Shown here: one piece after another, positions 31,104 to 34,275 of the stretch
Layout: each line of letters begins with the position of its first letter
Numbering within the stretch: the stretch's first letter is position 1
Origin: an uncultured Solirubrobacterales bacterium
GTDB taxonomy: Bacteria > Actinomycetota > Thermoleophilia > Solirubrobacterales > Solirubrobacteraceae
Direction of reading: 5' to 3'
DNA length: 64,000 nt
Assembly (NCBI GenBank): GCA_963764915.1
Contig: CAVXUO010000004.1
Location: forward strand, 379,664 to 443,663
The notes under the pieces: generated by a model
The model's input: only the letters and a program-made list of their open reading frames with translations
What the model was told of the DNA's origin: nothing
Databases searched by the model: none
Program-made: the position numbers and the translations under genes

Positions 31104-31267
31104 GCGGGCGTACCTCCATCGCTTGGTCTTCTCAGGACAAAGCGGAGGCTGTGTAGTTTCGGCGTGCCCCCTCGGTGAGTGTGGTGGGTGCGTCGTCTTC
31201 ATAGCGAGCCCCTGGGTAAGTGGAGAAGACGACGGGCGGCGGCGTCCGACGCGGCCGTGAGGGTGCT

Positions 31268-31412
31268 GGTGGCGGCGGGATGACTCGAAGCGGAGCCGGC
31301 CCATACCGGTGCCTTTGCGTAGAGCCGTCTCCCACCGCCACCGCACTCCGGATGCCGTCGTGACTTCATAGAAGCCTGACATCGCTCGACACAGCTCTGT
31401 CCGACGGCCTCC
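31268..31412 (+). ncRNA. Bridge RNA/seekRNA-like non-coding RNA of the IS110 (target- and donor-binding loops)
   Basis: Stem 31268-31284/31327-31342 encloses AAGCGGAGC and GCGTAGA (match target flanks); stem 31350-31364/31399-31412 encloses ATAGAAGC and ACACAGC (match element ends). Confidence 0.85.
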
Positions 31413-31443
31413 ACATCCCAAGCAGACGATGAGGAGAGAAACG

Positions 31444-32454
31444 ATGATTGCAGTAGGTGTGGACACGCACAAGCATGAGCACCTCGCAAGAGCCCTCGAC
31501 GGGCTCGGCCAGCCGCTGGGCGGCCTGACCGTCAACGCGAGCCTGGACGGCTATATGCAGCTGGTGCAGTGGCTCAGGACGCTAGAGGAAGACGTCGTGG
31601 TCGGGATCGAGGGCGCCGGCAGCTACGGCGCCGGCCTATGCGAGTTTCTACTCGCCGAAGGAATCAGTGTCGTTGAGGTCGAGCGCCCCCGGCGTCAAGA
31701 ACACCGACGAGGGAAGTCTGACGAGATCGACGCGCTGATGGCCGCGAAGAAGGTGCTCGCTGAAGACGGGCTTTCCACGCCCCGCGCAGGCGGCACTCGC
31801 CAGGCGCTGGCGGCGCTGCTCATCGCACAGCGCTCATGCGTTAGCGAGCGCACGAGGCTACTCAACCAGCTTCAGGCGCTGCACACCACCGCGCCCGTGG
31901 CTCTACGCGAGCGGATCGGTGAGGGTAATGGCCGCAAGCTCTCCCTACGCCTGGTCAAAATGCGCACTCGTAGCGATCGGCCGCGGAGCGAGCAGCTCGT
32001 CTTCGTCGTCCTGCGCGACCTTGCCCGCCGTTCGGAAGAGCTCGCCACCGAAGCAGCCGCCTACAAGCACGAGCTCACTCTGCTGATCAGCTCACTAGAT
32101 CCGACCCTCCTCCAAGAGCAAGGAGTCGGTCCGATCTCAGCGGCCAAGCTGCTGATCTGCGACGCCAGACGCCTAAAGAGCGAGGCAGCATTCGCGCGCT
32201 GCAACGGCACAGCACCCAAGCCCGCCAGCTCCGGGCAGACCGTCCGCTACCGCCTCTCCCGCGGAGGCGACCGACAAGCCAACACCGCACTACACACGAT
32301 CGCCCTCCACCGTGCCCGCCGCGACGAGCAAACCCGCGCCTACCTCGACCGCCGCACAAACGAAGGAAAGACCAAACGCGAGGCCATGCGAGCCCTCAAG
32401 CGCCACCTCTCCCGCAGACTCTACAAACACCTCATCACCATCCCCTTGACTTAA
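31444..32454 (+). CDS. IS110 family DEDD recombinase (transposase)
   Basis: RuvC-like 'VGVDTHK', 'GIEGAGSYG', 'KSDEIDA'; Tnp domain 'PASSG', 'GGDRQAN', 'ALKRHL'. Confidence 0.93.
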   Translation: MIAVGVDTHKHEHLARALDGLGQPLGGLTVNASLDGYMQLVQWLRTLEEDVVVGIEGAGSYGAGLCEFLLAEGISVVEVERPRRQEHRRGKSDEIDALMAAKKVLAEDGLSTPRAGGTRQALAALLIAQRSCVSERTRLLNQLQALHTTAPVALRERIGEGNGRKLSLRLVKMRTRSDRPRSEQLVFVVLRDLARRSEELATEAAAYKHELTLLISSLDPTLLQEQGVGPISAAKLLICDARRLKSEAAFARCNGTAPKPASSGQTVRYRLSRGGDRQANTALHTIALHRARRDEQTRAYLDRRTNEGKTKREAMRALKRHLSRRLYKHLITIPLT

Positions 32455-34275
32455 TAGAAGCATCTACGCCCGCAACTTCAAATCCCCCGGCTGGTGGGAC
32501 GCGACCGCGGCGGGCGAGACGATCAGCTACACCGCTCCGACCGGGGACTCGGCCGCGACCCGTGGCGGCACGAGCAGCTTCCAGGGCCACAACGGCGAAT
32601 TCGAGGATGCGGTCGTCCAGTTTCAGGCCGGGCCGCAGGTCGTGGGCTCGCTGGACTGCACGCAGGCCGAACCCTGTGACAGCTACAACATCTATCCGGC
32701 CGAAGACGCTTACGAAGTGGCTGTCGCGCCATGCCAGAACTTCGGGTCCTCTTCCGTGTACTGCCCCGACGCCGAATACTTCGTCGCCAACCTCGGTTCG
32801 GGCACGAACAATCGCTACGAACTGCTGGCTCCGCTGCAGTATCAGAGCGCGACCGTCAATGCGGGCAACGGCGGCTCGAAAATCTACGGCACCAACCCGA
32901 GCGCCGAAGAATTCGAACCCACGCTGTTCCCCGACCACGACATCTTCACCGGCGGCGCCGGCGACGACATCCTCGTCGGCGGTCCAGGCGACGACATCCT
33001 GCGCGGCGGCCCCGGCAACGACGTGCTCGACGGCCGCGGCGGGGAAGACCAGCTCTACGGCGAAGGCGGCAACGACGAAATCACCGGCGGGAAGAGCGGC
33101 AAAAGCCTCGAGGCCGGCGGCGAAGGAACCAACAAACTCGGGCTCACGTTCAACCTCGAAGCGCCCGACGTCGACAGCTACGACGGCGGCAACGAGACCT
33201 TCGACGGCGAAGGCGGGATCTCGACGGTGTCCTTCTTCGGCGCTCCGGGGCCGGTGACCGCGAAAGTCGACGGGCTGCCCGACAGCGGCGTCGCCGGTCA
33301 ACACGACACGATCGAGACGAACGTGACCGAGGTCGATGGCAGCGAAGGCAACGACACGCTGATCGCCGGCACCGGACCGATCATCCTCGACGGCGAGGGC
33401 GGCAACGACCTGATCGAAGGCGGCCCCGGCGGCGACACGCTGCGCGGCGGCGCCGGCGACAACACGATCAAGACCGACGGTCCCGACGGCGCCGGTCCCG
33501 ACAGCATCTACGCGGCCGAGTCCTTCTGCAACCTCGAAGTCTCCTGCCCGGGCGGCAACACGACAATCTACGCCGCCGACGGCATCCAGGACCAGATCAC
33601 CTGCGGGCCGGGCGCCGACATCGTCTACGCCGACGCGCTCGACGTCGTCTCCACCACGGGGGTCTTCGCCTGCCCGACCGTGTACCGCAGCGCGGGGGCG
33701 GGCAACCCCGGTGGCGGGACCGGCAATCCCGGCGGAGTCGGCAACCCCGGCGGGGCGGGCAACGCGGGCGCGAGCGCAGGCACTTCGAGCTTCGCGCATG
33801 TGAAAACAAAGGGGAACGTCGCCTCGCTCACGTTCGCCTGCGGAGGTGCGGCCACGGCCACGTGCGCGGACTCGCTCGTGCTGTCGGCGCTCGAGACGCT
33901 CCGCACGGGCAAGGTCGTTGCGGTGGCCGCGAAGACTAAGACGAAGAAGCGGACCCTCACGCTCGGGCACATATCGGCATCGCTCGCGGGCGGGACGTCG
34001 AAGACGCTGAGCGTGTCCCTCGACAGCACCGGGCGCGCGCTGCTCGCGCAATACCGCTCACTGCACGTCAAGCTCGTCGCCACGGAGACGACCGGCGGCA
34101 AACAGGTCGTCGTGGAGACGCTCACGCTGACCTTCACCGCACCCAAGCGCCACCACTAAACAGTGTCCGCGAGTAGAGCGGGCGGCCGCGCGGTTGCCGC
34201 GCTGATCGCCTCAGACGCGGCACTCGAACAGCCGCGCGCAGCCGTCGAACAATTACTGCGCCGGACCCCGGAGTC

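What the first reader, a model, noticed from the sequence alone, without database searches (positions are those of the whole stretch)
31140..32469. IS110 bridge RNA with all four guides matching its own junctions
Seen: the non-coding left end forms two stem-loops. Loop 1 holds AAGCGGAGC (31288-96, equals left flank 31140-47 plus 32461) and GCGTAGA (31317-23, reverse complement of right flank 32463-69), separated by a GCCGG/CCGGT hairpin. Loop 2 holds ATAGAAGC (31368-75, equals right end 32454-61) and ACACAGC (31389-95, reverse complement of left end 31148-54). Established: this is the target-loop/donor-loop layout of IS110 bridge RNAs. Possibly new: the guides imply a GC core but target and donor each carry one extra base relative to the IS621 rule, and the junctions share AG, suggesting a different register in this actinobacterial ortholog.
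Basis: partly seen in the sequence, partly recalled or inferred. Interest (0 to 1): 0.9.

Follow-up and report, generated by a model that had tools for sequence, protein, structure and literature searches.

The report
IS110 element with bridge RNA
This is an intact RNA-guided IS110 insertion sequence of a soil actinobacterium (Solirubrobacterales) that aims itself at the end of another transposon (IS256 family).

Summary
The four quoted strings are present and are not chance (0/2000 shuffles). The ORF is an IS110-family DEDD/Ser recombinase. The left end folds into a conserved 5' hairpin plus a target loop and a donor loop.

Across about 35 homologs in Solirubrobacterales genomes the stems co-vary, and the loop-1 guides track each element's own flanks.

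Empty IS256 ends read AAAGCGGAGG-CT-ACGCCC. Every homolog's right end is ...ATAGAAGC(A/G)T-C. RDG and RTG co-vary with a C-N dinucleotide at that position. Only a CT junction gives a TTGACT-17-TAGTTT circle promoter. The element body is therefore 31151-32463, with a CT core at 31149-50 and 32464-65. The extra matched bases (A31323, C31395) are handshake guides.

Two departures from IS621 are real. This element's LTG (AAGCGGAG) pairs one base out of register with its target (AAGCGGAGG-CT), yet four independent insertions use that site. The family's LDG stops two bases before the core.

Verdict: a new member of a known kind, of modest interest.

The parts
31151..32463 (+). IS110-group insertion sequence body (1313 bp; 1315 bp with one core copy)
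   Evidence: Three 100% identical copies in this genome and a 98.5% identical copy in another MAG (1295/1315). Ends fixed by empty sites and by the conserved termini of about 35 homologs.
31149..31150 (+). Left copy of the CT core (crossover dinucleotide)
   Evidence: The empty site AAAGCGGAGG-CT-ACGCCC compared with the occupied site leaves a 2-nt overlap, CT. The RDG core complement is AG.
32464..32465 (+). Right copy of the CT core
   Evidence: Same as the left copy. The RTG core complement AG equals the right-junction core.
31140..31148 (+). Left target arm (LT) AAGCGGAGG inside the IS256 end; 31140-47 matches the LTG shifted by one base
   Evidence: 3/8 in register, 8/8 shifted by one.
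32466..32469 (+). Right target arm (RT) ACGC
   Evidence: Complement of RTG GCGU.
31154..31159 (+). -10-like hexamer TAGTTT of the circle-junction promoter
   Evidence: TTGAC[TA]-17 nt-TAnnnT forms across the RE-LE junction in 22/23 distinct family members.
32446..32451 (+). -35-like hexamer TTGACT in the right end (overlaps the last codons)
31190..31235 (+). 5' stem-loop (SL1) with the conserved inner motif ..AGCGRAGCC-YGUA-GGGCG..
   Evidence: Folds in all family members, with a variable outer stem; function unknown.
31268..31342 (+). Target-binding loop (TBL): outer stem 31268-84/31327-42, inner hairpin 31298-31313
   Evidence: RNAalifold consensus and pair counts: helices 1 and 2 are 95-97% paired, with 5 compensatory pairs.
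31288..31297 (+). LTG AAGCGGAG plus CC (the family's core positions, usually CU)
   Evidence: The LTG differs in every lineage and matches that lineage's own left flank at 5-8/8 in register in 33/35 elements.
31317..31324 (+). RTG GCGU (pairs with RT ACGC), AG (pairs with core CT), then handshake AG (A pairs with T32463 of the element's right end)
   Evidence: The handshake second base is U where LD ends AT and C where LD ends GT. The rule comes from IS621.
31350..31412 (+). Donor-binding loop (DBL): stem 31350-64/31399-31412
   Evidence: Helix 3 is 98.6% paired with 2 compensatory pairs.
31368..31375 (+). LDG AUAGAAGC (same as right end 32454-61, which stops 2 nt before the core)
31389..31396 (+). 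RDG ACAC (pairs with RD GTGT 31151-54), AG (core), then handshake CU (C pairs with G31148, the last target base)
   Evidence: There are three compensatory RDG/left-end variants. The handshake base is U only where the target's last base is A (L010/L035).
31444..32454 (+). Recombinase gene (336 aa from ATG 31444, GGAGA upstream; the longest ORF starts at 31429)
   Evidence: PF01548 3e-22 and PF02371 1.1e-13. NF033542 'IS110 family RNA-guided transposase' scores 151.3 bits against a cut-off of 140. IS621 8wt6 hits at E 2.6e-7 with E, D, D and the catalytic Ser aligned.
29768..32506 (-). Host IS256-family (Mutator-type) element interrupted by the IS110; transposase gene 29826-31103
   Evidence: PF00872 3.1e-76. 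Terminal repeats located. The IS110 sits 45 bp upstream of the transposase start codon.
29802..29815 (-). Unoccupied second version of the target motif in the other IS256 terminal repeat (GAGCGGAG-CT-ACAC), in register with the LTG

Best explanation
An active IS110-group insertion sequence (body 31151-32463, CT core on each side) encodes a DEDD/Ser bridge recombinase. Its 293-nt left end encodes a bridge RNA made of a 5' hairpin, a target-binding loop and a donor-binding loop.

By homology with IS621 (inferred, not shown here), the excised circle joins ...ATAGAAGCAT-CT-GTGTAG.... This creates a TTGACT-17-TAGTTT promoter that drives the RNA and the recombinase.

The donor loop reads the circle junction:
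- LDG AUAGAAGC pairs with the right end.
- RDG ACAC-AG pairs with CT-GTGT.

The target loop reads a motif in the terminal repeat of an IS256-family transposon, AAGCGGAGG-CT-ACGCCC:
- LTG AAGCGGAG pairs with the left arm.
- RTG GCGU-AG pairs with CT-ACGC.

Strands are exchanged at the CT. One base 3' of each right guide (A31323, C31395) is a handshake guide that pairs with the other partner after strand exchange. That is why the guides appear to read one base across the integrated junctions.

The LTG pairs one base out of register with this target: one extra G lies next to the core. The likely reason is that the motif exists in two versions in IS256's imperfect terminal repeats. The guide fits the single-G version in register, but only the double-G version has the perfect core plus right arm. 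That version is the one used.
For: Shown here:
- Recombinase family and catalytic residues.
- Three identical copies in this genome sit at the same position of three IS256 copies that are only 84-89% identical to each other. A fourth copy is in another MAG.
- Empty sites give a CT duplication.
- The right end ...GC(A/G)T-C is conserved in about 35 homologs with unrelated flanks.
- Scaffold structure: 96.6% of cells paired against 39-58% with slid partners, and 7 compensatory pairs.
- Guide/flank specificity: own pairs score 9.5/12, non-cognate pairs 4.1 +/- 1.6, and only 0.36% of non-cognate pairs reach the own median.
- RDG and RTG co-vary with the core and right arms, and both handshake bases co-vary with the partner DNA.
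- A 17-nt promoter spacer arises only with the CT junction, in 22/23 family members.
- The genome has 2,546 CTACGC half-sites but all 3 insertions are at the IS256 motif, so the shifted LTG match matters.
- In-register versions of the motif at the other IS256 end and elsewhere have one RT or core mismatch and are empty.

The IS621 rules come from PMC11208160 and PMC11208158.
Against:
- No Rfam family matches.
- No empty site exists in this genome. The four occupied IS256 copies form a clade apart from the empty ones, so the empty-site argument alone would not exclude a native ATC there. It is the family-wide conserved right end that settles the point.
- The LTG does not include the full core in register, and the LDG is not contiguous with the core, which departs from the IS621 rule.
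- The second handshake base of the target loop (G31324) does not pair with A32462.
- Handshake co-variation rests on only one or two evolutionary events each.
Confidence: 0.88

Rival explanations
1. One reading: the element spans 31148/50-32461 with a GC (or AG) core and a register that differs from IS621 on all four guides.
For: All four RNA strings are followed by or end in GC. A GC-core circle would match LDG and RDG over 8 nt each.
Against: - It requires the target to be ...GGAGGCATCTACGCC, but empty IS256 ends read ...GGAGGCTACGCC.
- ATC follows GAAGC in every homolog regardless of flank.
- The base pairing with C31395 varies with the flank (U where the flank ends in A), so it is target-derived.
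- The promoter spacer would be 14 or 15 nt instead of 17.
Confidence: 0.03
2. Half-match insertion: the element is placed by the core plus the right arm (CT-ACGC) alone. The shifted LTG match is then a relic of a guide evolved for the single-G version of the motif and plays no part at this site.
For: Half-match recombination is documented for IS621. The RTG (UUUGCGUAG) is identical in the whole 85%-identity clade while the LTGs differ. In-register sites with an imperfect right arm are empty.
Against: There are 2,546 CTACGC sites in the genome, yet 3/3 insertions here and 1/1 in another MAG are at the one motif whose left arm matches the LTG 8/8 when shifted by one.
Confidence: 0.08
3. The copies are not independent insertions. 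A composite IS256::IS110 was duplicated by IS256 transposition, and the IS110 parts were later homogenised by gene conversion.
For: The four occupied IS256 copies form one clade.
Against: The IS256 parts differ by 11-16% while the IS110 parts are identical in this genome. Conversion tracts would have to stop exactly at the IS110 ends in each copy. Even if true, this would not alter the bridge-RNA reading, which rests on the other homologs.
Confidence: 0.05

Closest known systems
IS621 (E. coli) bridge recombinase and bridge RNA; also ISCro4/IS622 (IS110 group)
   Same: - DEDD RuvC-like plus Ser Tnp recombinase.
- Long left end and very short right end.
- 5' hairpin, target loop and donor loop.
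- The left guides read the sense strand and the right guides the antisense strand.
- CT core.
- Handshake bases 3' of RTG and RDG.
- A promoter assembled at the circle junction.
   Different: - The protein is only distantly related (E 2.6e-7).
- The LDG match ends 2 nt before the core, whereas in IS621 it runs contiguously through the core.
- This element's LTG is one base out of register with its natural target and carries CC rather than CU at the core positions.
- In the wider family only the C of the core is always shared between element and target.
[quoted passage not shown]
   Same: A member of the IS110 family that homes to a fixed position in the terminal repeat of another transposon, in one orientation.
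   Different: Those elements belong to the IS1111 group, with the guide RNA in the right end and long subterminal repeats. Here the RNA is in the left end and the host element is of the IS256/Mutator type.
ISPpu9/ISPpu10 (Pseudomonas putida), IS110 elements that target repeated extragenic sequences
   Same: They use a multi-copy repeat as a safe landing site.
   Different: Their target is a REP-type intergenic repeat, not a transposon end. No sequence relationship was tested here.

Membership tests
IS110-group bridge-RNA insertion sequences (IS621 type) | Recombinase with an N-terminal DEDD RuvC-like domain and a C-terminal Tnp domain | tested here: met
   PF01548 3e-22 and PF02371 1.1e-13. 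NF033542 scores 151.3 bits against a cut-off of 140.
IS110-group bridge-RNA insertion sequences (IS621 type) | Catalytic D, E, D, D and Ser present | tested here: met
   The alignment to IS621 8wt6 places E (GIEGAG), D..D (SDEIDA) and Ser (ASSGQ) on the IS621 residues. The first D (GVDTH) lies in the Pfam match but outside the printed PDB alignment.
IS110-group bridge-RNA insertion sequences (IS621 type) | Long non-coding left end, very short right end, no terminal inverted repeats, and a 2-bp core at both junctions | tested here: met
   The left end is 293 nt (31151-31443). The right end is 9 nt after the stop codon. CT is present at 31149-50 and 32464-65.
IS110-group bridge-RNA insertion sequences (IS621 type) | Structured RNA in the left end with two internal loops, supported by co-variation | tested here: met
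   35 pairs in 3 helices, 96.6% paired against 39-58% with slid partners, and 7 pairs with compensatory changes.
IS110-group bridge-RNA insertion sequences (IS621 type) | Loop-1 guides match the target arms and change with the target across orthologs | tested here: met
   There are 14 distinct LTGs. They match in register at 5-8/8 in 33/35 elements. Own pairs score 9.5/12 against 4.1/12 for non-cognate pairs.
IS110-group bridge-RNA insertion sequences (IS621 type) | Loop-2 guides match the element's own ends | tested here: met
   LDG AUAGAAGC equals 32454-61. The RDG shows three compensatory variants with the left end.
IS110-group bridge-RNA insertion sequences (IS621 type) | The core dinucleotide is included, contiguously, in all four guides | tested here: inconclusive
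   Met for RTG and RDG. The LTG of this element covers only the C, and only after a one-base shift. The LDG match ends 2 nt before the core in the whole family.
IS110-group bridge-RNA insertion sequences (IS621 type) | Handshake guides 3' of RTG and RDG pair with the non-cognate partner | tested here: met
   In the TBL, A pairs with the T of LD in all elements, and the second base is U with LD ..AT and C with LD ..GT. In the DBL, the base is C with a target ending in G and U with a target ending in A. The second TBL base of this element is unpaired.
IS110-group bridge-RNA insertion sequences (IS621 type) | A promoter is assembled across the circle junction | tested here: met
   In silico only: TTGACT-17-TAGTTT. 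The same spacing occurs in 22/23 family members.
IS110-group bridge-RNA insertion sequences (IS621 type) | The RNA is expressed, binds the recombinase and directs recombination | not testable with these tools

The most novel reading that the evidence does not exclude
This family may use a variant geometry of bridge recombination in three respects:
1. The left target guide can work while displaced by one base from the core (a bulged or slipped target), provided the core and right arm are perfect.
2. The left donor guide stops at the position where IS621 cuts the bottom strand, two bases before the core.
3. Only the first core base (C) has to be shared, so the effective crossover lies after the C.

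If real, these would be natural design rules for guide spacing and core choice in bridge recombinases.
Probability: 0.2. Interest if true: 0.55.

Novelty: new member of a known kind. Interest (0 to 1): 0.3.

Why it matters
The finding extends well-supported bridge-RNA elements to Solirubrobacterales (Thermoleophilia), with about 35 natural guide/target pairs that confirm the IS621 rules, including the handshake guides, in a distant lineage.

Its practical value lies in the exceptions. One natural guide works one base out of register next to the core. In-register sites with a single right-arm or core mismatch stay empty. The second core base often differs between element and target. These observations could inform off-target prediction and guide design for bridge recombinases. 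They are only comparative observations until tested in an assay.

Tried and rejected
- Rfam scan of the region at E up to 10: only noise, no bridge-RNA family.
- Search for an empty site in the window's own genome: none; all three IS256 copies of this subgroup are occupied.
- GC-core and AG-core registers: rejected.
- Search for further copies carrying this target loop:
  - In 400 family genomes there were only two one-mismatch hits, both chance matches inside coding sequence.
  - An exact-pattern scan of metagenome contigs gave 0 hits.
- Literature search for bulged or offset bridge-RNA guides: nothing relevant in the library.
- Reading the 5' hairpin as a third guide loop for the IS256 motif: considered but not supported. 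Its two loop strands are variants of one symmetric motif (GNAGCGRA) in all lineages and do not change with the target.
- My first fixed-offset parse of the LTG failed for the lineage with a 2-nt longer linker and was redone with a 3' anchor.
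Full report
**Observation.** The sequence at 31140-32469 is as quoted. AAGCGGAGC (31288-96), GCGTAGA (31317-23), ATAGAAGC (31368-75) and ACACAGC (31389-95) each match a junction string on the stated strand. Against dinucleotide-preserving shuffles of the left end, the summed longest matches (8+7+8+7) were reached in 0 of 2000 trials, and no shuffle had all four at 7 nt or more. What needed correction is which bases are 'flank' and which are 'element'.

**What the element is.**
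- The ORF (31444-32454; the longest frame starts at 31429) carries PF01548 (DEDD_Tnp_IS110, 3e-22) and PF02371 (1.1e-13).
- It passes the NCBIfam equivalog NF033542, 'IS110 family RNA-guided transposase' (151.3 bits, cut-off 140).
- Its only solved relatives are the IS621 and ISCro4 recombinases (E 2.6e-7 and 6.4e-5). The alignment places E (GIEGAG), D..D (SDEIDA) and the catalytic Ser (ASSGQ) on the IS621 residues.
- No Rfam family matches the left end.
- The minus-strand ORF next to it is a Mutator/IS256-type transposase (PF00872, 3.1e-76). The IS110 sits 45 bp upstream of its start codon, inside the IS256 element, which spans 29768-32506.

**Copies and targeting.**
- The window's genome holds three copies, 100% identical apart from one extra C near the stop codon of one copy.
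- Each lies at the same position of a different IS256 copy. Those IS256 copies are only 84-89% identical to each other.
- A fourth copy (1295/1315 identical) sits at the same position of yet another IS256 variant, in a Solirubrobacterales MAG from another sample.
- Identical inserts in diverged hosts mean recent, independent, site-specific insertions.

**The core is CT.** No empty site remains in this genome. Four lines of evidence fix the core.
1. Unoccupied IS256 ends in three other genomes all read GGACAAAGCGGAGGCTACGCCCGC. Against the occupied AAAGCGGAGGCTGTGTAG...ATAGAAGCATCTACGCCCGC, the longest left match ends in ...GGCT and the longest right match starts at CTACG.... The overlap is CT. 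Because the occupied IS256 copies form their own clade, this alone would not exclude a native ATC in that clade.
2. Every one of about 35 homologous elements (60-98% protein identity) ends in ...ATAGAAGC(A/G)T-C followed by unrelated sequence. So the AT at 32462-63 and the C at 32464 belong to the element and core, not to the target.
3. Three left-end variants exist, CT-GTGT, CC-ATGT and CG-TTGT. The 3' guide of loop 2 reads ACAC-AG, ACAU-GG and ACAA-CG respectively. The core complement in the 3' guide of loop 1 equals the right-junction core in 34/35 elements.
4. Only the CT junction puts TTGACT (32446-51) and TAGTTT (31154-59) 17 nt apart. The same TTGAC[TA]-17-TAnnnT arrangement forms in 22 of 23 distinct family members.

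The element body is therefore 31151-32463, with CT at 31149-50 and 32464-65.

**The RNA.**
- MAFFT of the left ends and a 16-sequence alignment of the RNA region (A1) give a consensus of three helices: the outer stem of loop 1 (31268-84/31327-42), an inner hairpin (31298-31313), and the stem of loop 2 (31350-64/31399-31412).
- 96.6% of cells are paired, against 39-58% when the 3' partners are slid by 1-3 columns. Seven pairs have compensatory changes. No shuffle reaches the observed co-variation score.
- An additional 5' hairpin (31190-31235) is conserved in all lineages. IS621 also has a 5' stem-loop.

**Guides.**
- The 8 nt after the conserved GGGAUGACUCG differ in every lineage (14 distinct LTGs). 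They match the 8 bases that abut the core in that lineage's own left flank at 5-8 of 8 positions in 33 of 35 elements.
  - L008/L079: TGATCTGG.
  - L010/L035: GTTAATGA.
  - L075: TCTAATTG.
  - L077: TTATCGAG.
- Own guide/flank pairs score 9.5 of 12. Non-cognate pairs score 4.1 +/- 1.6.
- This is the target loop/donor loop logic of IS621 (PMC11208160).
  - Here A31323 pairs with T32463, which is conserved in all right ends and is therefore donor DNA.
  - C31395 pairs with G31148, which varies with the flank and is therefore target DNA.
  - The family shows the expected co-variation. The TBL handshake is AU with right ends ..GCAT and AC (or AU, giving a wobble) with ..GCGT. The DBL handshake base is C where the target ends in G and U in L010/L035, where it ends in A. 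These rest on one or two evolutionary events each.

**What is unusual.**
- *The LTG offset.* The window's element and its 98% twin are the only ones whose LTG is out of register. AAGCGGAG matches the in-register arm AGCGGAGG at 3/8 positions and the arm shifted by one at 8/8. The core positions of the LTG read CC instead of the family's CU.
  - The cause appears to be the target itself. IS256's two terminal repeats are imperfect copies.
  - The near end reads AAGCGGAGG-CT-ACGCCC.
  - The far end reads, in the three local copies, GAGCGGAG-CT-ACAC, AAGCGGAG-CC-ACCC and AAGCGGAG-CT-ACCC, and CAGCGGAG-CT-ACGCCC in a relative. That is the single-G version, in register with the guide.
  - The local far ends have one mismatch in the right arm and are empty.
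  - So are the two other best in-register sites in the genome: AAGCGGAG-CT-ACGG at contig C4:25274 and AAGCGGAG-CA-ACGC at contig C6:890367. All three offset sites with a perfect core and right arm are filled.
  - The right arm alone cannot explain this, because there are 2,546 CTACGC sites. So the slipped left-arm pairing evidently contributes.
  - The RTG (UUUGCGUAG) is identical throughout the 85%-identity clade while the LTGs differ. Retargeting in this clade has therefore gone through the left guide.
- *The LDG gap.* In the whole family the LDG match (AUAGAAGC) stops two bases before the core. The intervening AT/GT is what the TBL handshake reads. In IS621 the bottom strands are cut between the bases opposite top positions 5 and 6, two bases left of the core. 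The end of the LDG pairing therefore coincides with that position. This is an analogy, not a test.

**Side observation on the core.** In eight elements the second core base differs between the two junctions: L008, L079, L010, L035, L075 and L078 (CT/CC), L077 (CG/CA) and L012 (CC/CG).
- In all eight, the left junction carries the element's base.
- In seven of the eight the right junction carries the base predicted by the RTG. In L012 the right flank does not fit its RTG and looks rearranged.
- For L010/L035 the empty site GGTTAATGACCGTGAG is visible in the flanks of other elements.
- Only the C is always shared.
- Whether this reflects a crossover after the C, biased repair or single-strand pathways cannot be decided here.

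**Mechanism.**
- Shown here: the anatomy, the targeting, the co-variation and the junctions.
- Inferred from IS621: excision to a circle, promoter formation at the junction, transcription of the left end, a recombinase tetramer holding target and donor through the two loops, strand exchange at CT, and stabilisation of the exchanged strands by the handshake bases.

**Limits.** A metagenome pattern scan found no further copies.

**Verdict.** This is a clean, active bridge-RNA IS110 element in a new host lineage, nested in an IS256 end. The remaining points of interest are the one-base slipped left guide and the family's guide spacing.

Noticed in passing
window 31190-31235; the same hairpin in L010, L011, L068, L081 etc.: The conserved 5' hairpin carries a near-symmetric inner motif (GNAGCGRA-GCCC-GUA-GGGC-GNAGCGRA). 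In several lineages it reads AAGCGGAGCC...GGGCGUAG. That is the same as this element's LTG and RTG, and it fits the IS256 motif AGCGGAG-CY-ACGCCC in guide logic. It does not change with the target. This could be coincidence, a structural motif, or the source of this element's guides.
   Followed up: partly
L008, L079, L010, L035, L075, L077, L078, L012 (junctions listed): The second base of the 'core' differs between left and right junctions. The left junction always carries the element's base. The right junction carries the base predicted by the RTG in seven of the eight; L012's right flank does not fit its RTG. Only the C is always shared, as if the effective crossover lay after the first core base.
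   Followed up: partly
window 29802-29815 (minus strand); own-genome contig C18 near positions 276279 and 331351 (not window coordinates): The other terminal repeat of each IS256 copy holds an in-register version of the target with one right-arm mismatch. All three are unoccupied.
   Followed up: yes
L004 (own genome C18:325607-326735): A second, 68%-identical IS110 family member of the CC-ATGTAG lineage lies about 6 kb from one of the IS256::IS110 copies. Its left terminus looks degenerate: CCAGTTTC where its relatives have CCATGTAGTTTC.
   Followed up: partly
own genome C18:273629-274943 (third copy): This copy has one extra C just before the stop codon (CCCCTTCGACTTAA instead of CCCCTTGACTTAA). 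It shifts the frame over the last few codons and alters the -35 hexamer of the junction promoter.
   Followed up: no
flanks of L036 and L012; right flanks of L010 and L035: Two different family lineages insert about 20 bp apart into the same repeated element (GGTTAATGA-CC-GTGAG...CGAAACGG-CC-AAGCAATT), each at the position its own target loop specifies.
   Followed up: partly
L069-L071 (OY969562.1, about 1.497-1.507 Mb): Several 85%-identical family members with different LTGs lie within 10 kb of each other. The left flank of L070 contains the target motif of the L069 type. This looks like a local nest of IS110 insertions.
   Followed up: no
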